IMG/VR virus record: IMGVR_UViG_3300031787_000103
Coordinates: 1,392 to 65,391 of that record
Reading direction: 5' to 3' (one strand)
Source: a virus
Taxonomy: Duplodnaviria > Caudoviricetes
DNA length: 64,000 bases
Shown: positions 28,424-63,595 of the stretch, piece by piece
How the letters are laid out: every line of letters starts with the position of its first letter
How positions within the stretch are numbered: position 1 is the first letter of the stretch
Notes under the pieces: model-generated
Seen by the model: only the letters and a program-made list of their open reading frames with translations
Database searches by the model: none
Told to the model about the DNA's origin: nothing
Program-made: the position numbers and the translations under genes

Positions 28424-29089
28424 TCAACATAGACTGAACTCAGACTTACGCACCCGCCATATCGAACCATAGGAGTAGAAACACTCAGACATAGAAAAGG
28501 GGTAATTCCACCACATTTGACGGTGCGCCCATTCTTGAATAGAGGCACGTTTAACCCTTTGTTTCTTGTGGGTGGTCTTTTCTATCCCGATTAGGTCGGA
28601 ACTAAGTTTCTGCATGGTTGATTTTGAAAGTCCGGTTAGCTTGGATAATTCGCGGGTACTGATTTCCACGGGGCGACCACGGTATTTTTTTAGCATTTTG
28701 CGCTGTGTTGACTTTGCTTGTGCCGCCTTTGTAGCATTGTAGTATGCCACGCGATTTATCTTGCTCCGAACTATTGCGGAGATTATTTCCTTTCTTACAT
28801 CTTCTTCACGGATTTTGAGGTATTGAGTTCCTTCTAAGTTACGTTTTGGGGTGAGAATGACACGGCCCGATTCTACGCGAGCAAATCCATTGTCAATTAG
28901 GTGCTGTATCTTGTTTGCAATGGTTGAAGCCGACTTATACGGCAACCGTCCGGTTTTAAGGACACCCTTTGCCCCTTTGTGGTAAAAGATAACCCCGTTA
29001 CGAAAAGCCCTTTTGAACACGGCGTAAACGACAAGCGTTTGCACTGGGTAGTTCGGGATGCTTTTGTACGGGATTACCGATAAATTCAT
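28424..29089 (-). CDS. Basic winged-HTH DNA-binding protein
   Basis: ISTRELSKLTGLSKSTMQK HTH-like segment; K/R-rich. Confidence 0.6.
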   Translation of the reverse strand: MNLSVIPYKSIPNYPVQTLVVYAVFKRAFRNGVIFYHKGAKGVLKTGRLPYKSASTIANKIQHLIDNGFARVESGRVILTPKRNLEGTQYLKIREEDVRKEIISAIVRSKINRVAYYNATKAAQAKSTQRKMLKKYRGRPVEISTRELSKLTGLSKSTMQKLSSDLIGIEKTTHKKQRVKRASIQEWAHRQMWWNYPFSMSECFYSYGSIWRVRKSEFSLC

Positions 29090-29218
29090 AAAAAACGAAA
29101 AGCCCTGCGGGGAAACTGACAGGGCTAAAGCAAAAGGGGTTTATTCCTCTTTCTTTTGCCTTTCGCAGTGGTTTCCCCTTCACTACGAAAAGCATCGTAC
29201 GTTTGAGCCGTAAATATA
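29090..29218 (-). promoter_or_regulatory. Three-hairpin 5' leader with terminator and complementary loops
   Basis: Loops GGGGAAAC / GTTTCCCC; a G-U pair favours the minus-strand RNA. Confidence 0.6.
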
Positions 29219-29397
29219 CAATCCTCGATTCGCAGATTGCAAACTTTTTTAGTAAGTGTTGAAAAGTATTTTTCGTCGAGCGTTTTTTGACTTTCGTCGT
29301 GCGATTGTTACAATTAGGCTAATTTCCAAGAAAATAGTTGATTTTGCCGTGTCCACCGCAGTACATTAGCCGCCGTAATCAATAACAAATAACAACA

Positions 29398-31805: not shown

Positions 31806-32223
31806 CCAAAGAAACCGTAAAAATCGACACCCGTTACCCGAAATCGGCACGGTGTATTCAGTCCACATTCACGCCGGACGGATGGAAACAAGCCACATTC
31901 AACGACCTTGCACGGCATCACGCAGGGGCCAAAAAAGAGTCGCTGTTTCAGAGGATAGTCGCAGGGGTGAAAGAAACGATTGACGAGATATGAAAACCAC
32001 TACCCCGAAGAAGATAAGGGCTTTCCCATACGAGCGTTTGAGCCGTGCCCTTGCCTACTTTGAGGACATCGACATGAACCCAAAGAGTGCTATCAAGACC
32101 TTCATGCCTACAAAGAGAAGGTTAATGCAGAAGTTGGACTACGATACCTATGACATGGAAGTGCTTGAAGCGCTTGAGGCTGTTATTGAGAAGTTAAATT
32201 CATTGCACGGCTCGAACGGGTGA
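31802..32223 (+). CDS. Two small hypothetical genes (31802-31993, 31990-32223)
   Basis: Coupled ORFs. Confidence 0.55.
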
Positions 32224-32252
32224 TGTATATTTGAGGCAGTTCTTTGATTTAT

Positions 32253-32558
32253 GGGGCTGACTGGATTTGACAGTCGGAAAGAAGAATGTAGTTCAGGCAG
32301 GTGGCGACCTTACGCACAAGTCAGAAACGACAACAATGTGATTCCTATGTTCCCTTCGTGGAACGGTGTTCAGGCAGCAGCGTAAGCTGTTCACGGCAAC
32401 AGAAAACCTGAAAATGTTTGTCCGAACGTAAAACGGACTGGTGGACACCTCCGGCGATAAGTCGAGGCCCTGTTTGCGGGTATGTCAAACCCGATAAGCC
32501 TGTAAGAAAATGAATTTTGGAAACCGATTGGACGTGGGTTCGACTCCCACCAGCTCCA
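32253..32558 (+). ncRNA. ssrA: tmRNA
   Basis: 5' GGGGCTGACTGGATTTGAC; 3' GACGTGGGTTCGACTCCCACCAGCTCCA; G3-U wobble in the acceptor stem; tag frame 32323-32385 ending QAAA*; TATATTTG promoter at 32226. Confidence 0.93.
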
Positions 32559-32563
32559 CTAAA

Positions 32564-32728
32564 GGACGGGTGTCGTGGATTAACACCCACAGACAGTGTA
32601 TCGCGCGTATGTTGCGGGGGGCCCAACTCAGGGATGACAGAGCACCAGAGGACAACCGTTAAGACAACCACTTCGCGTGAATGAGGAGACAGAGATGTTA
32701 CCGTAGGCAGAACGCCCTACCCCGTCCA
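32564..32728 (+). ncRNA. Candidate tRNA-shaped structured RNA of unknown class
   Basis: 7-bp GGACGGG/CCCGTCC stem plus A, stacked on a 5-bp GTAGG/CCTAC hairpin; additional internal hairpins. Confidence 0.5.
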
Positions 32729-32804
32729 AAAATTAGTGTTTCACTGACAGCCGGAAAGACGGCATTTTTACAAGGCTTTTTGGTTAATAGGTTAATTTAG
32801 GTCG

Positions 32805-32835
32805 AAAGTCCCCGTGAAAAGTCGCGGGGATTTTT
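32805..32835 (+). terminator. Intrinsic terminator of the tmRNA transcript
   Basis: AAAGTCCCCGTGA-AAAG-TCGCGGGGATTTTT. Confidence 0.6.
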
Positions 32836-32849
32836 GTATATTAGCCCCC

Positions 32850-33155
32850 ATGAGTATCAGAGATATAGTCAGAGAAAGTTATCGTGACGCAGGGCTAAAC
32901 CGTTGGGTAGCAAGGAATAAGTCGGTACATCGGACAATCTTGTACTGCCTATTCACCGGAGCAATCGCAGGGGCTTTGCTTGAGTCGCCGGAAATGGTAC
33001 TCTTGTGCGGCGGTTCTTTTGTCCTTTGGCTGTGGATTTTGGCACTTGAGCACATCTACATAGGCCACAAGATTGAGAAGATTATGGATAAATTAAGGGA
33101 GGCCGGATATAACGTATCGTGGGAGGAAGCATGGAGTCAGGCGGGGATAGAGTAA
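32850..33155 (+). CDS. Two-TM membrane protein
   Basis: Hydrophobic pair; -7 box 5 nt upstream. Confidence 0.6.
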   Translation: MSIRDIVRESYRDAGLNRWVARNKSVHRTILYCLFTGAIAGALLESPEMVLLCGGSFVLWLWILALEHIYIGHKIEKIMDKLREAGYNVSWEEAWSQAGIE

Positions 33156-59362: not shown

Positions 59363-61053
59363 GCAGGTTTCTTAATGGTTGTGAATTTCAGGCTATTGTA
59401 AATCACGTTGTTCACGTTGGTCGGAACAAAGTCGAACACAAGCGGCAAGGACTCACTCATCGCGTAAGTGGTCTCGGTCTCTGTTACGCTTGTTGCAGGT
59501 GTCGCAGTCAGTCGTGTAATGTTCCGTGTCACGGTGTAGCTGTCCACATCGGTACGCACGGCGCGAATGAAGATATTTGCAAACTGTCCGGTTGTAAGCG
59601 TTACCCCGTTAAGCAAGTCGTGACCGTTTGTCACATCTTCCATCTTGAGGTCGCACGTTGCGCCTACAAACTCTGCACGCATTTCGATTTCAAGGGCATC
59701 ACCTACGCCGAAACTTGCCGTAGGAATCGTCACCGTGTCCGAAGCCGTCAGTTCTGCGCCGGTAAGTTCCTCAAACGTGAAGAAGATAACCTTTTGCTCT
59801 CCGGCTGTTCCAAGCAGTGTGTTTGCCGAATTTCCTACCCATGACACCGTGCCGTCCTCGCAACCCTCGCAGCCGCAGCCCGAAGTGCCGGAAGAACAAC
59901 CGCAGTCGTTTGTAGCGGTCGAGCCTACAAGCCCTTTAATCGCCGCAACTGCCGCGGCCATAGAATCGGTATCGCCGCAACTCTGTGCGATTTGGAAGAT
60001 ATTGACGTATGAGTTAAGTTGCCTTACCGTGTCGGCATAAGCGCTTGACGCACCGCATGAAATACTTGCGGCGTCGAGTGCCACGGTCTTTTCGATACAG
60101 TCAAGGTACTTGCAAAGGTTGGTCTCGCATGACACCGCAGCGCTCACCGTGCCGCTGATCTGATACTGCACCACAAGCTCGTCGTCCTGCAAGCACTGAA
60201 CCGTATCGGTAATAGTACCCTGCCACGGCCCGTTCGCCAAAACGTCAAGCGTAATAGCATTAACCGTCACATCGGTGTTTACAACCGGATTTGCGGGTGG
60301 CGGCGGCGTAAGTCCTTCGGGATAGAACAACTTTTGGCTTCTTGTGGTCACGGTCTGTCCCGACGGATAAACCGTGCTATTGACAAACGTAATGGTCTCG
60401 TCTGAGCAGGAAGACTGGATGCTAAGGCAAAGTTCGGCCTCGTCGCATCCGGTGTATGTGAATGAATAAGACTTCTCGTATTTGCGGCTAATGGAAATAT
60501 CTACCTGTGTGCCGCTTGAGCCGTTTTCGTTGTTTGTAAACGAACCCGCAGCGAAAATAACTGAGGTTGTGTTTAGCCCTGAGTCAAACGTCGAACTCAC
60601 CACGGTCTTAGTTCCGTTGTTCCCCGTGTTTGAACTACCTGAGAATACCACGGTGTTACCCGCGATAAGGTAGTCGTGATTGCCCGGAAGAATAACGGTC
60701 TGAGTCGTTACCGTGATCTGCGATACCACAATGTCATTAGCGATAACGTCAAGTGACACAAAATAGGTAAAAGGATACGACCCGTTGAGAATCTGACCTG
60801 AATTAGTCGTTGGCAGGTTAAACCAAGCACTATTCACCGCGCTTGTCGAAAGGCTAATGAGTGGTGCGCTCACAACAAGTTTCTGAAAGACAATATCACT
60901 CACAGGGTCGTTCATCTGACCCAATCCCGTAAGATTGGCAAGGGGCATACCCTCAAAGTCTGAGTAATCCACGTTATCCGTTACCCGTACACGCTTGTTT
61001 ACTGCGTCGAATACAACGGTTACGTCTATGTCTGAGTCGGTGAAAAGGGCCAT
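59359..61053 (-). CDS. Structural protein with Cys-rich middle region
   Basis: T/S/V-rich beta domains; CGCSSGTSGCGCEGC. Confidence 0.6.
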   Translation of the reverse strand: MALFTDSDIDVTVVFDAVNKRVRVTDNVDYSDFEGMPLANLTGLGQMNDPVSDIVFQKLVVSAPLISLSTSAVNSAWFNLPTTNSGQILNGSYPFTYFVSLDVIANDIVVSQITVTTQTVILPGNHDYLIAGNTVVFSGSSNTGNNGTKTVVSSTFDSGLNTTSVIFAAGSFTNNENGSSGTQVDISISRKYEKSYSFTYTGCDEAELCLSIQSSCSDETITFVNSTVYPSGQTVTTRSQKLFYPEGLTPPPPANPVVNTDVTVNAITLDVLANGPWQGTITDTVQCLQDDELVVQYQISGTVSAAVSCETNLCKYLDCIEKTVALDAASISCGASSAYADTVRQLNSYVNIFQIAQSCGDTDSMAAAVAAIKGLVGSTATNDCGCSSGTSGCGCEGCEDGTVSWVGNSANTLLGTAGEQKVIFFTFEELTGAELTASDTVTIPTASFGVGDALEIEMRAEFVGATCDLKMEDVTNGHDLLNGVTLTTGQFANIFIRAVRTDVDSYTVTRNITRLTATPATSVTETETTYAMSESLPLVFDFVPTNVNNVIYNSLKFTTIKKPA

Positions 61054-61240
61054 TTCGTACTATGAGTTTAGCACAAAAATAAGCCTTGTGACACAGTATT
61101 TTGGGAGTGTATCTAAACACTTTTTACCAAACCAAAAGCCCCATCGTGTGACGGGGCTAAGTGGTTAATACTTCATTCTATGTCTAACGATTCAAATATA
61201 CGCTAACCTTCGTGTCGCGTACAATTAATTTAACATCTCG

Positions 61241-62146
61241 TTAGGCTTTCGCGCTAACCTTCTCCATAGCGGTCAAAATCCGTGTGGCGGTTTCCTTGTT
61301 CTCGGAAACATACTTCGCAAACGAAAGTTCGGGTTCGTCCGCAGACTTCGGGACAATCACACGACCCGCACCTGCCTTGCCGACAAGTTTCCAACCTTCC
61401 TCGTCGCAGATAAGCGCACCACATTCCAAAGCCTCACGAACAAGTTTCGCGGCATCGGCAATATTGCTATCGCCCTTGCAAATCTCATCGTATGTGCCAA
61501 TGTACTTCGGGTTGGCAACAAGGAAGTCGTACAGGTTTGTACGGTCAACCTCCTCTGCCCCGTCAATATCCACGTCAAGGGCCACAAGGACTTTCTTAAC
61601 CATGTCGTATGACTTGCCGGACAACAGAACCTCGTTCTCAAGACGTGCGCGGTGACGTGCGGCCTCGATACGTGAAGCACTTGTAGCCTCCGGTGATGAA
61701 AACGTAAACACGGCGTTTTGGTTAGCCGTAAACCCGTTGTCAAAAAGACCTGAGTAGAAGTACAAAAAGTACAGCTTTTCAGTATCCTTCTTCGGGTAAA
61801 GCGCCATGCCGTGCATAATGTTCATCTTGGTTTCCATGCCCCACTTGATCTCGCCGTTCTTAATCTTCGGCGTCTGTGAAGCATAAACTACCTCGTCAAA
61901 CGTACCGCCGTCGTTAGGTACATTCTTGATGCACTTAACGCCATAGGGCGGTGGGTAAAGGTCAACTTGTGAGTAAACGCGGCGTCCGGGGATACCCTTC
62001 ACGCCTTTTTGCTTGTATTGCGCCGTGAAAAACAGCGTTACAGGCTTGGGGCTTTGCTTGTCGAAGAATCGCGGGAATCGCTTTTCGAGCAGTGCAAGTT
62101 TGTCTTCGTCGAGGCGGTTAGCCTTCTTTCCGTTAATGAAAATCAT
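61241..62146 (-). CDS. Conserved protein downstream of the major capsid gene
   Basis: Position. Confidence 0.6.
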   Translation of the reverse strand: MIFINGKKANRLDEDKLALLEKRFPRFFDKQSPKPVTLFFTAQYKQKGVKGIPGRRVYSQVDLYPPPYGVKCIKNVPNDGGTFDEVVYASQTPKIKNGEIKWGMETKMNIMHGMALYPKKDTEKLYFLYFYSGLFDNGFTANQNAVFTFSSPEATSASRIEAARHRARLENEVLLSGKSYDMVKKVLVALDVDIDGAEEVDRTNLYDFLVANPKYIGTYDEICKGDSNIADAAKLVREALECGALICDEEGWKLVGKAGAGRVIVPKSADEPELSFAKYVSENKETATRILTAMEKVSAKA

Positions 62147-62167
62147 GGTTTTGATTGATTAAAAGTT

Positions 62168-62197
62168 AAGGGGGAAGGCGTTTCCCTCCCCCTTTGG
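62168..62197. terminator. Hairpin after the major capsid gene
   Basis: AAGGGGGAAGG..CCCTCCCCCTT inverted repeat. Confidence 0.55.
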
Positions 62198-62209
62198 TTT
62201 TTGGTTCGA

Positions 62210-63595
62210 TTAAGATACCGCTGCCTTACGGAACAGTCCGCAGTGAGTGATATTGGTAAAGTCGAAACCGACTTCCGAAATCACGTGAACCTTAGACTCA
62301 TCCTTCGCAGTGTTACGAGCAGGAGAAGCACCACCTGTCGGCCACATACGCATAAGGCGGTTCTGACCGTAATCCTTATACTTCATGGTTACATAGTTGG
62401 TGAACATCTCACGTCCGCTTGCATCCTTCGCAGTGGTCTTACCCGCTGGCATTACAAAACCGTAGTCTTGCAGCGAAGAAGCATCCAAAGCACCCGCCCA
62501 CGCTACGTCGTCAAAGGTCAATACGCGCTTTGTACCGAATGAACGGCCATTTACGCTAAGACCCTGAATCGAGTAGTTGTAGTACAGTTGCTCTGCCTGT
62601 GGGCCGTTTCCGAAGATAGCCTGTGCAAGCTGTGGGTCAACCGCGTTCATAAGGCTGTTGCTGAAATCTCCGCGAACGTCGTCCTGAATCTGACCGTAAG
62701 AACGGCCTGAAAGCAGACAAACGTAGTTCTGAGTAGCCCAAACTTTTGAGAGTTTAGCCTCAAGAGCAGCGAAGTCAGCATAGGTCAGCGTACCGCCTGT
62801 GTCCTCGGTCTGTGCGCGTCCATTGAACGCATCAACCATACCGATAGTGGTGTCAAGCGAAGTAGTTGACGCGAGGTTGTTGTCGTGACGACCGTAAAGC
62901 ATCGCGCCGACAATCGCCTTGAGGTGACGGTACTCAAGCTGTGCGGTGAGAAGAGAAGAATAACCACGAAGGGTCAGTCCGTCTTCACGGTACACGGGCT
63001 TAAGGCTGTCAGTGAGGGCCGTTCCGCTGATCGAATCGTCGTTACGGATGTCCTGCAAGTACCACTGATACTTGGTTTGGAACGACACCTGTGAATCCTG
63101 AGCATCTGACCCTTCCGGTACGGAGTTAGAGTAGATGATGAAGGTGTCACCTGCGGCGATGTCCACGTTGGTAGTCGAAAGCAGCGGACGAAGCACGAAC
63201 TGAGTGGTGTAGGTCGGGGCTGCACCAACAGTCTTTGTGATGATCTGATAACGCTGTTCGCTTTGCAGGTGCATCACGAGGTTGCCCTCAATCGGGTATG
63301 AACCTCCGGTTGAGGTGTCAACGTAAGAAGAAGTCAGGGTAACGGTTACGTTGTTACCTGCACCCGGCGCTGCGGGGTTGTTGCTAATGGTAAACGCGGT
63401 GTCGAAACGGTCTTCTTCCCAGTGTTCTCCGGTGATCTGTGATACGGCTTCTTTCGCTCCCATGTCGAAAAACATTTGGAGCAGGTCGAGACCCTGTGCG
63501 CCGTAAGGCTGAAAGAGTTTCTTCGACCACAACGGTTCGAGAATATCATAATTCGCGAGTAGACCGTTGGTTACATTAAGGTCTTGTGCAATCAT
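62210..63595 (-). CDS. Major capsid protein
   Basis: 461 aa; strongly biased codon use; HWEEDR...PEGS...MLYG pattern; followed by a hairpin. Confidence 0.75.
   Translation of the reverse strand: MIAQDLNVTNGLLANYDILEPLWSKKLFQPYGAQGLDLLQMFFDMGAKEAVSQITGEHWEEDRFDTAFTISNNPAAPGAGNNVTVTLTSSYVDTSTGGSYPIEGNLVMHLQSEQRYQIITKTVGAAPTYTTQFVLRPLLSTTNVDIAAGDTFIIYSNSVPEGSDAQDSQVSFQTKYQWYLQDIRNDDSISGTALTDSLKPVYREDGLTLRGYSSLLTAQLEYRHLKAIVGAMLYGRHDNNLASTTSLDTTIGMVDAFNGRAQTEDTGGTLTYADFAALEAKLSKVWATQNYVCLLSGRSYGQIQDDVRGDFSNSLMNAVDPQLAQAIFGNGPQAEQLYYNYSIQGLSVNGRSFGTKRVLTFDDVAWAGALDASSLQDYGFVMPAGKTTAKDASGREMFTNYVTMKYKDYGQNRLMRMWPTGGASPARNTAKDESKVHVISEVGFDFTNITHCGLFRKAAVS

What the first reader, a model, noticed from the sequence alone, without database searches (positions are those of the whole stretch)
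32564..32728. Unclassified 165-nt tRNA-mimic RNA directly behind the tmRNA
Seen: 5 nt after the tmRNA discriminator, GGACGGG pairs with CCCGTCC followed by A. This stem is directly preceded by a 5-bp GTAGG/CCTAC hairpin, giving the 7+5 bp acceptor/T-arm geometry of tRNA, with T at position 8. The loop is CAGAACGC rather than TTCGAAT, and ~130 nt of other structure (TGTCGTGG..CCACAGACA, CCC-AACTCA-GGG) replaces the D and anticodon arms. There is no convincing plus-strand ORF. Inference: co-transcribed and released by RNase P/Z. It could be a decoy for anticodon nucleases, a Y-RNA-like mimic or a new ncRNA class.
Basis: partly seen in the sequence, partly recalled or inferred. Interest (0 to 1): 0.72.

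Follow-up and report, generated by a model that had tools for sequence, protein, structure and literature searches.

The report
Conserved phage RNA behind the tmRNA
The 165 bases behind this phage's tmRNA gene encode a folded small RNA of an uncatalogued family that phages keep among their tRNA-type genes, here mounted on a tRNA-shaped frame; its job is unknown.

Summary
Taken alone they are weak evidence. The fold is only z -2.0 against shuffles, 11% of windows in this genome fold as well, and the 7+5 bp geometry occurs 11 times in the window.

Homologues settle the question. A 28-nt strand (32643-32670) and the helices around it recur in 20 IMG/VR phage contigs and in a RefSeq crAss-like phage. 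There is one copy per genome where whole records were searched, always on the strand of the tRNA genes. A covariance model built without the window hits it at 85 bits (E 7e-16) and gives 0 hits in 1.4 Mb of control loci.

Pair counts are 96%, 98% and 93% paired in three alignments. Compensatory changes occur in 14 of 18, 8 of 10 and 19 of 30 pairs, with 0 of 500 shuffles as good.

No Rfam family matches. The module sits between tRNAs, inside real tRNA scaffolds in the anticodon-arm position, in the spacer of a permuted tmRNA, or, as here, behind a tmRNA on a degenerate cloverleaf.

It is a real, apparently new RNA family. Release by RNase P/Z is plausible but untested, and the function is unknown.

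The parts
32225..32776 (+). 552-nt block (promoter-like site, tmRNA, element, first small terminator-like hairpin) that one related phage appears to lack as a unit
   Evidence: in DNA run X18 one 117-nt contig (depth 4.95, shorter side 33 nt, laid at min likeness 80) joins 32224 to 32777 with 22 other letters between. The tool warns that such joints can be spurious, so this is a hint only.
32226..32233 (+). TATATTTG, resembling the Bacteroidota -7 promoter motif (motif recalled, not tested)
   Evidence: Read. The sigma-70 scan finds nothing upstream of the tmRNA.
32253..32561 (+). one-piece tmRNA; CCA not encoded (CTA follows discriminator A 32558)
   Evidence: Rfam RF00023, 85.7 bits, E 7.6e-32, full model. 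The frame of the 44-aa ORF 32251-32385 ends in ...GVQAAA then a stop. ARAGORN misses it.
32564..32570 (+). P1 5' strand (acceptor-like closing helix, 7 bp, with 32721-32727)
   Evidence: The equivalent closing helix in 5 relatives is 98% paired, with 8 of 10 pairs changed on both sides and 0 of 500 shuffles as good.
32571..32595 (+). extra hairpin in D-arm position (8 bp with one bulge, 8-nt loop); found only in this phage
   Evidence: It appears as an insertion relative to 6 relatives in alignment A4.
32596..32600 (+). junction J1/2, GTGTA (GTRTA in group A relatives)
   Evidence: Alignments A4 and A5.
32601..32607 (+). P2 5' strand, pairs with 32674-32680
   Evidence: helix 1, 8 pairs, 7 with changes on both sides, 94.6% of cells paired. 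Cognate versus non-cognate duplex test: 0 of 20000 permutations as good.
32614..32643 (+). P3: GC/GC base (32614-15 with 32642-43), internal loop, CCC/GGG tip (32622-24 with 32631-33), loop AACTCA (32625-30)
   Evidence: helices 2 and 3. In group B it is a continuous helix of 7 positions, 6 counted as pairs around an A.C mismatch (94.4% of cells paired).
32627..32630 (+). pseudoknot, loop side (CTCA), pairs with TGAG 32682-32685
   Evidence: helix 4: 4 pairs, 3 with changes on both sides, 96.4% paired (CTCA/TGAG, CTTA/TAAG, ACTA/TAGT).
32643..32670 (+). invariant 28-nt strand containing one isolated pair, 32658 G with 32665 C, that closes a 6-nt loop
   Evidence: Invariant in 16 of 16 aligned rows; 20 of these positions were fixed by the search pattern. 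Relaxed patterns added only one variant. The isolated pair is G:C in 8 rows and A:T in 8 rows of 16.
32674..32680 (+). P2 3' strand
32681..32702 (+). junction after P2; holds the pseudoknot 3' side (32682-32685) and a purine-rich AGGAGA stretch
32703..32720 (+). extra hairpin in T-arm position (GTAGG / 8-nt loop / CCTAC), stacked on P1; found only in this phage
   Evidence: The loop has no T-loop consensus, and there is no tRNA call.
32721..32727 (+). P1 3' strand, then A 32728
32745..32769 (+). 15-mer that repeats tmRNA positions 32268-32282 in 14 of 15 bases, overlapping a small GCCG/CGGC hairpin followed by ATTTTT
   Evidence: best local match of the tmRNA to the 219 nt behind it; 1% of 300 shuffles score as high. 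Hairpin read.
32805..32835 (+). strong terminator-like hairpin with an A-tract before it and a T-run after it, ahead of the next gene (ATG 32850)
   Evidence: 15-bp helix in the fold; read. The consensus scan did not list it.

Best explanation
The stretch is a gene for a small non-coding RNA of an uncatalogued phage family.

Shown:
- Its heart is a module made of helix P2, helix P3, a pseudoknot between the P3 loop and the strand after P2, and an invariant 28-nt strand with one isolated covarying pair. A helix P1 closes the module.
- The module occurs once per phage genome where whole records were searched. It is always co-oriented with tRNA-type genes.
- In this phage it occupies the anticodon-arm position of a degenerate cloverleaf: P1 is a 7-bp acceptor-like helix, one extra hairpin sits in the D-arm position, and one in the T-arm position.

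Inferred:
- It is transcribed from the tmRNA promoter as part of a self-contained unit of promoter, tmRNA, element and terminator.
- It is separated from the tmRNA by the host's tRNA-end enzymes. RNase Z would cut at the CCA-less tmRNA end and/or RNase P at the 5' side of P1.
- It persists as a stable RNA whose helix-closed, tRNA-shaped frame protects it.

Guessed:
- The invariant strand is the working surface. It would bind, and so divert or block, a conserved host component that handles tRNA or translation.
For: Family and fold:
- BLAST hit to L296 (80% over 81 nt, E 6e-16).
- The core pattern is found in 19 IMG/VR stretches, plus L319.
- Model R1, built from 5 relatives without the window, scores the window 85.3 bits, E 6.8e-16. 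It gives 0 hits at E<=1 in 100 bacterial tmRNA loci (736 kb) and in 100 phage loci (677 kb).
- Pair counts: A4 has 96.0% of cells paired, 14 of 18 pairs with changes on both sides, 0 of 500 shuffles as good, and slid controls of 30-47%. P1 in A5 has 98%, 8 of 10, 0 of 500. Group B in A7 has 92.6%, 19 of 30, 0 of 500.
- Not coding: 15 of 17 members have stops in all three + frames.
- No Rfam match.

Context:
- Between tRNA-Lys genes in L302, L306 and RefSeq crAss-like phage cr126_1, where the 120-nt gap is unannotated.
- Between tRNA-Asp and tRNA-Gly in L314.
- Inside a tRNA scaffold in L305 and L315.
- One copy in each of 5 of 5 whole records.

Transcription unit:
- The element folds as its own domain inside the long transcript, with a strong terminator hairpin behind it.
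- One X18 contig suggests a relative that lacks 32225-32776 as one block.

Processing:
- A 7-bp acceptor stem is described as a major RNase P determinant, and a tRNA-like Y RNA was cut by RNase P and received CCA (passages of PMC4201824).
Against: - No RNA evidence for the element itself.
- Its own folding energy is ordinary for this genome.
- The T- and D-position loops lack tRNA consensus and no tRNA model fires, so recognition by RNase P is not assured.
- Most relatives have only a plain closing helix, so a tRNA frame is not needed by the family.
- No conserved protein neighbour points to a partner.
- The structures were drawn by eye from the same sequences that were then counted, which favours them over the slid controls.
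- The family was collected with a pattern that fixes 20 core positions.
Confidence: 0.6

Rival explanations
1. The element is the former intervening segment of a two-piece (permuted) phage tmRNA gene. It works only in cis, as a folded spacer that guides maturation of the tmRNA ends. The one-piece gene here would have arisen from a permuted one by tandem duplication and loss.
For: - In L296 the order on one strand is acceptor piece (T arm..CAGCTCCAC), about 260 nt holding the module, then the tmRNA 5' end. ARAGORN reads a permuted tmRNA there.
- Of 18 phage loci with this tmRNA 5' end, ARAGORN permuted, and Rfam RF04321 confirms 4 of the 5 tested.
- Weak RF04321 hit across the tmRNA end into the element (21.2 bits, E 0.044).
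- Behind the element lies a 14-of-15 copy of tmRNA positions 32268-32282.
Against: - Most members sit in tRNA arrays without any tmRNA. 0 of 5 whole records holding the module (the records of L303, L310, L314, L306 and L317) have a permuted tmRNA.
- A spacer would not need an invariant 28-nt strand kept across genomes whose elements range from 30% to 57% G+C.
- RF04321 does not reach its threshold on L296.
- The 15-mer is a single short match (1% of shuffles).
Confidence: 0.15
2. The module is a small ribozyme or an intron-like mobile insert that invades tRNA-type genes and cuts itself out.
For: - The architecture (pseudoknot, junction, a long invariant strand) is typical of small ribozymes; this is general knowledge, recalled.
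- It is found at varied sites: inside a tRNA body (L305, L315), between tRNAs, and within a tmRNA spacer.
Against: - No match to any Rfam ribozyme or intron family at E<=10 (window) or E<=1 (5 loci).
- Removing the insert from L305 leaves no anticodon loop. ARAGORN's intron readings disagree between the near-identical L305 (Leu, intron of 64 nt at position 38) and L315 (Lys, intron of 59 nt at position 43).
- Most copies are intergenic, where splicing has no purpose.
Confidence: 0.1
3. It is a Y-RNA-like partner of a host Ro60 (Rsr) protein.
For: - It has a tRNA-like outline.
- Bacterial Y RNAs mimic tRNA and also occur in phages (abstract and passages of PMC4201824).
- The control genome Bacteroides thetaiotaomicron carries a TROVE protein.
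Against: - No TROVE gene in the phage.
- No match to any Rfam family beyond those listed; that Rfam holds a YrlA model is recalled.
- The conserved T and D arms that define YrlA in that paper are absent here.
Confidence: 0.04
4. It is only the 3' trailer of the tmRNA transcript, and its stems are chance.
For: z is only -2.03. 11% of genome windows fold as well. The 7+5 geometry is common in the window.
Against: Homologues in 20 other phage contigs with compensatory changes.
Confidence: 0.02

Closest known systems
Phage T4 small stable RNAs rnaC and rnaD (species 1 and 2 RNA) at the end of the T4 tRNA cluster
   Same: - Small non-coding RNAs of 119-139 nt, annotated as stable RNAs, lying head to tail with tRNA genes on the same strand (T4 record).
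- The rnaC sequence ends in a T-arm-like hairpin next to its terminal helix (read).
- Function still unknown (recalled).
   Different: - No homology. Model R1 scores at most 8.1 bits (E 0.83) in the T4 tRNA region, and that match is not on rnaC or rnaD.
- The fold and the invariant strand differ.
- Here the neighbour is a tmRNA.
Bacterial and phage Y RNAs of the YrlA type
   Same: - A functional RNA module combined with a tRNA-like domain.
- One member with a 7-bp acceptor stem is cut by RNase P and receives CCA (passages of PMC4201824).
   Different: - YrlA is defined there by conserved T and D arms and by lying next to a Ro60 gene.
- Here those loops are not tRNA-like, the phage has no TROVE gene, and the conserved part is the module in the anticodon-arm position.
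Intervening segment of permuted (two-piece) tmRNA genes (Rfam RF04321)
   Same: It lies directly behind the tmRNA acceptor 3' end. In L296 the same module lies in that segment.
   Different: The tmRNA here is one-piece. Most family members have no tmRNA nearby.
tRNA (Rfam RF00005)
   Same: - 7-bp closing helix abutted by a 5-bp hairpin, in a four-way junction.
- Two relatives are true tRNA scaffolds.
   Different: No anticodon arm, no T-loop or D-loop consensus, and not detected by ARAGORN or Rfam.

Membership tests
New family: phage tRNA-cluster pseudoknot module (defined here) | Invariant strand CAC-N-AGAGGACAACC-R-TTAAGA-Y-AACCA | tested here: met
   Window 32643-32670. Invariant in 16 of 16 rows, although 20 positions were fixed by the search pattern.
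New family: phage tRNA-cluster pseudoknot module (defined here) | P2 and P3 helices, the isolated R:Y pair and the loop-to-junction pseudoknot | tested here: met
   The window row forms 16 of 17 standard pairs in P2 and P3, the isolated pair and the pseudoknot, and one T.T at the inner end of P2. Whole alignment: 96% of cells paired, 14 of 18 pairs with compensatory changes.
New family: phage tRNA-cluster pseudoknot module (defined here) | Significant score to a covariance model built without the window | tested here: met
   85.3 bits, E 6.8e-16. 0 hits in 1.4 Mb of control loci.
New family: phage tRNA-cluster pseudoknot module (defined here) | Closing helix P1 around the module | tested here: met
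   GGACGGG/CCCGTCC. The model could not align it because of the two extra hairpins. P1 covaries in relatives.
tRNA | Detection by ARAGORN or the Rfam tRNA model | tested here: not met
   0 genes. No tRNA hit at E<=10 in 32100-33000.
tRNA | 7-bp acceptor helix stacked on a 5-bp T arm | tested here: met
   32564-70 with 32721-27, and 32703-07 with 32716-20, with no spacer. The same geometry occurs 11 times in the window.
tRNA | T-loop and D-loop consensus; anticodon arm | tested here: not met
   The loops read CAGAACGC and ATTAACAC. The anticodon arm is replaced by the module.
T4 rnaC / rnaD | Sequence and structure homology | tested here: not met
   R1 over the T4 tRNA region with filters off: best 8.1 bits, E 0.83, not on rnaC or rnaD.
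T4 rnaC / rnaD | Small RNA gene co-oriented within a phage tRNA-type gene cluster | tested here: met
   In the window it lies behind the tmRNA.
YrlA-type Y RNA | Ro60 (TROVE) gene next to it | tested here: not met
   No TROVE match in the 65-kb phage record. The host genome is unknown.
YrlA-type Y RNA | Conserved tRNA-like T and D arms | tested here: not met
   Loops as above. No Rfam match.
Permuted tmRNA intervening segment | Lies between an acceptor piece and a following coding piece | tested here: not met
   The tmRNA is one-piece. Only a 15-nt look-alike of the tmRNA 5' part follows. The feature is met in L296.
Known ribozymes, introns and riboswitches in Rfam 15 | Match to a family model | tested here: not met

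The most novel reading that the evidence does not exclude
The module is a phage-made effector RNA that is matured like a tRNA. Its invariant 28-nt strand, presented where a tRNA shows its anticodon arm, would act in one of two ways. It could trap a host enzyme that acts on anticodon arms, such as an anticodon nuclease of an anti-phage defence or a tRNA-modifying enzyme. Or it could be the active site of a new small ribozyme class. A side story: this one-piece tmRNA gene may have been rebuilt from a permuted phage tmRNA, with the module as the old spacer.
Probability: 0.2. Interest if true: 0.85.

Novelty: new variant of a known kind. Interest (0 to 1): 0.64.

Why it matters
- Phage tRNA clusters have carried unexplained small stable RNAs since T4. 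This adds a well-supported family with an unusually invariant strand.
- It is present in Crassvirales of the human gut and in freshwater Bacteroidota-type phages.
- Nature has repeatedly mounted it on tRNA frames and placed it next to tmRNA. That placement gives a concrete handle on function: mutate the strand, pull down partners, test RNase P.
- It links phage tRNA arrays, tmRNA gene permutation and possible RNA-based interference with host translation or defence.
- It also fills an unannotated 120-nt gap in a RefSeq crAss-like phage.

Tried and rejected
- **First reading, chance stems or trailer.** It was favoured and dropped.
- **Relatives through the neighbouring resolvase gene.** The single-protein scan found nothing. 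160 loci fetched with a profile hold neither the tmRNA nor the element (BLAST and ARAGORN; R1 on 100 of the 160). 0 of 5 whole records reach the tmRNA cut-off.
- **Exact-pattern scans that found nothing.** The junction 34-mer, a tmRNA internal 25-mer and the element's first hairpin in genomes.
- **Bacterial tmRNA loci.** No similarity to the element lies behind their tmRNAs (BLAST on all 120; R1 on 100 of the 120).
- **Bacterial genomes.** R1 found nothing in 5 genomes or in 151 sampled Bacteroidota genomes. This means not found in those searched, not absent.
- **RNA runs.** X14 and X15 hold contigs identical to the tmRNA (32265-32519 and 32261-32509) and nothing over 32565-33000 or over 32100-32250.
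- **RNAalifold on the plain MAFFT alignment** found nothing useful, because the helices were misaligned.
- **A second pseudoknot** (GATAAC with GTTATC) was dropped. L312 and L314 do not keep it (by eye).
- **Mini-ORF behind the AGGAGA stretch.** It has 3 codons in the window.
- **Intron reading of L305 and L315.** ARAGORN's calls are inconsistent.
- **Shared protein neighbour within 2.5 kb.** None occurs in 3 or more of 16 loci.
- **T4 homology:** none. **TROVE and SmpB in the phage:** none.
- **Pseudoknot in the duplex test.** It is only weakly separated: 939 of 20000 permutations were as good.
- **Relaxed core patterns.** These brought 9 chance hits in coding sequence (L320-L328) and one true member.
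- **Search for host sequences complementary to the invariant strand.** This was not carried out, so the question stays open.
- **Recalled likeness of part of the strand to the sarcin-ricin loop of 23S rRNA.** Not tested. A position that would have to be conserved varies among members.
- **Literature.** Searches listed nothing on this family. PMC10690425 (passages read) catalogues 8495 candidate structured RNAs from IMG/VR and may list it in supplements that I could not see.

Full report
**Setting.** The window is nearly all of a 65,391-bp IMG/VR virus record that CheckV rates complete. The proteins around the locus point to a phage of Bacteroidota. A 181-aa protein is 50% identical to proteins of Cellulophaga phages. 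The DNA-polymerase exonuclease subunit is closest to Cellulophaga and crAss-like phages. The genes around the locus include uracil-DNA glycosylase, a Holliday-junction resolvase and an HNH endonuclease. Rfam places a full-length one-piece tmRNA at 32253-32561 (85.7 bits). ARAGORN misses it. The gene does not encode CCA: CTA follows the discriminator at 32558.

**The observation.** By itself this is weak.
- The fold is z -2.03, and 7 of 200 shuffles fold as well.
- After correction for G+C, 11% of 3192 windows of the same genome fold as well.
- A perfect 7-bp helix abutted by a 5-bp hairpin occurs 9 times on the + strand and 2 times on the - strand. Shuffles give 4.4 per strand.

At that stage I thought a structured trailer or chance was as likely as a gene.

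**Finding relatives.** Close relatives of the phage were not available.
- The resolvase neighbour has only distant kin, and none of 160 fetched loci holds the tmRNA or the element.
- Three exact-pattern scans found nothing.
- 120 bacterial loci sharing the tmRNA 5' 21-mer are almost all Bacteroidota and have nothing like the element behind their tmRNAs.

The break came from phage contigs that share the tmRNA 5' end. ARAGORN of these 18 permuted tmRNAs, and Rfam RF04321 confirms 4 of the 5 tested. One of them, L296, matches 81 nt of the element at 80% identity (E 6e-16). In L296 the match lies between the acceptor piece and the tmRNA 5' end.

A pattern from the shared core then found 19 IMG/VR stretches. 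Two relaxed patterns added one true member and nine chance hits in coding sequence. The family as held is the window plus 20 IMG/VR contigs, with 17 distinct sequences. It also includes the crAss-like phage cr126_1, held as the GenBank and RefSeq copies of one genome, whose copy is identical to L302's.

**Anatomy.** A closing helix P1 surrounds, in order:
- a short junction (GTRTA in group A);
- helix P2;
- a U-rich joiner;
- helix P3;
- an invariant strand of 28 nt, containing one isolated pair that is G:C in 8 rows and A:T in 8 rows of 16;
- the return strand of P2;
- a junction whose first bases pair with the P3 loop to form a pseudoknot.

Two subfamilies differ in P3 and in an extra hairpin P4.

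**Covariation.** I drew the helices by eye and then counted them.

| Alignment | Helices counted | Cells paired | Pairs changed on both sides | Shuffles as good | Slid controls |
|---|---|---|---|---|---|
| A4: 7 group-A rows, window included | P2, P3, isolated pair, pseudoknot | 96.0% | 14 of 18 | 0 of 500 | 30-47% |
| A5: 5 group-A rows, window excluded | P1 | 98% | 8 of 10 | 0 of 500 | 43-59% |
| A7: 6 group-B rows | P1, P2, P3, P4, pseudoknot, isolated pair | 92.6% | 19 of 30 | 0 of 500 | 28-45% |

The window's P1 could not be aligned to the P1 columns, which is why A5 excludes it. Further tests agree.
- A test free of my alignment paired each 5' window with every 3' window across 14 members. 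It separates cognate from non-cognate partners for P2 (0 of 20000 permutations), for P1 (71 of 20000), and only weakly for the pseudoknot (939 of 20000).
- A covariance model built from five relatives, without the window, scores the window 85.3 bits (E 6.8e-16). It gives no hit at E<=1 in 1.4 Mb of unrelated loci.

Caveats:
- The structure was derived from the same sequences that were counted.
- The rows are few and related.
- The pattern used to collect members fixes 20 core positions.

**Not coding, not catalogued.** 15 of 17 members have stops in all three + frames. No Rfam family matches the window element at E<=10 or the core in five relatives at E<=1. Five literature searches listed nothing on it. 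A catalogue of 8495 candidate RNAs from IMG/VR may contain it in supplements that I could not read.

**Context.**
- The module always lies on the strand of the tRNA genes.
- It fills the gap between tRNA-Lys(CTT) and tRNA-Lys(TTT) in L302, L306 and cr126_1, where the RefSeq record leaves 120 nt unannotated.
- It lies between tRNA-Asp and tRNA-Gly in L314.
- In L305 and L315 it replaces the anticodon arm of a scaffold that Rfam scores as tRNA (38.5 bits for L305) and that folds as a cloverleaf.
- In L301 a 7-8-bp helix stacked on a T-arm-like hairpin sits beside it.
- Five of five whole records hold exactly one copy.
- Five records holding the module have no permuted tmRNA.
- No protein neighbour recurs.
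- It was not found in 156 bacterial genomes searched.

**The window's version.** Relative to six group-A relatives it carries two extra hairpins. One follows P1's 5' strand directly and one precedes P1's 3' strand directly. P1, hairpin, module and hairpin therefore form a cloverleaf outline with the module in the anticodon-arm position. However, the loops have no tRNA consensus, and the selected part is the module.

**Transcription unit.** Upstream of the tmRNA lies a Bacteroidota-type -7-like motif (motif recalled; read). Behind the element lie a weak and a strong terminator-like hairpin. In DNA run X18 one short contig joins 32224 to 32777. That suggests a relative without the whole block of promoter, tmRNA, element and first hairpin. 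The tool warns about such joints, so this is a hint. In X17 a near-identical tmRNA sits in another upstream context.

**How it most likely works.**
- Shown: a conserved, single-copy, pseudoknotted RNA gene tied to tRNA-type genes.
- Inferred: co-transcription with the tmRNA and separation by tRNA-end enzymes. The CCA-less tmRNA end is the kind RNase Z cuts (recalled). A 7-bp acceptor helix is a major RNase P determinant, and a tRNA-like Y RNA with such a helix is cut by RNase P and receives CCA (passages of PMC4201824).
- Guessed: the invariant strand binds a conserved host component of tRNA handling or translation.

**Rivals.** These are a cis-acting relic of a permuted tmRNA spacer, a ribozyme or intron-like insert, a Ro60 partner, and chance. 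Each is weighed in its own section.

**Comparison.** In kind it is closest to the T4 stable RNAs rnaC and rnaD, which lie in the T4 tRNA cluster. It is not homologous to them. It lacks the defining features of YrlA and of tRNA. Earlier notes of this scan describe other uncatalogued RNAs in phage tRNA arrays. None matched by sequence.

**Verdict.** This is a real and apparently undescribed RNA family of a known kind, with an open function.

Noticed in passing
window 32253-32561: The phage tmRNA is missed by ARAGORN, does not encode CCA, and its frame reads an unusually long tag ending ...NDNNVIPMFPSWNGVQAAA. The phage has no SmpB gene. Two metatranscriptome runs hold contigs identical to it.
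   Followed up: partly
L285, L286, L288, L289, L292-L295, L297, L299, L300 (also L298, L296): Many phage contigs with a Bacteroidota-type tmRNA 5' end carry permuted (two-piece) tmRNA genes, with spacers of about 17 to 265 nt between the acceptor piece and the coding piece.
   Followed up: partly
L296 5860-5965 (minus strand): Between the tmRNA acceptor piece and the module lies a second helix-closed domain (a 7-bp closing helix) whose 3' strand is followed by TCCA, like an encoded CCA end (read).
   Followed up: no
NC_055884.1 53737-53852 (L329 1461-1575): The RefSeq crAss-like phage cr126_1 has an unannotated 120-nt gap between two tRNA-Lys genes. The gap is a member of this RNA family.
   Followed up: yes
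window 32745-32759 versus 32268-32282: A 14-of-15 direct repeat of a tmRNA 5' segment lies just behind the element. It may be a relic of a second tmRNA 5' part (1% of shuffles score as high).
   Followed up: partly
L305 and L315, P3 helix; group B P3: A conserved A.C mismatch in P3 (5 of 6 group-B rows, and L305) is replaced by G.T in L315 and by A-T in L319.
   Followed up: no
window 32224 / 32239: The spot just after the stop of the 77-aa gene is a variable junction among relatives. X18 holds two different continuations after 32223-32224, and in X17 the tmRNA has a different upstream sequence from 32239.
   Followed up: no
window about 29040-29250, 61000-61250, 62080-62330, 63160-63370: These windows have the strongest G+C-corrected folding energies in the genome, on one or both strands. 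They were not examined.
   Followed up: no
L318 4771-5031: One member-bearing contig has a standard tmRNA with a 32-residue tag, 2.7 kb from the module on the same strand.
   Followed up: no
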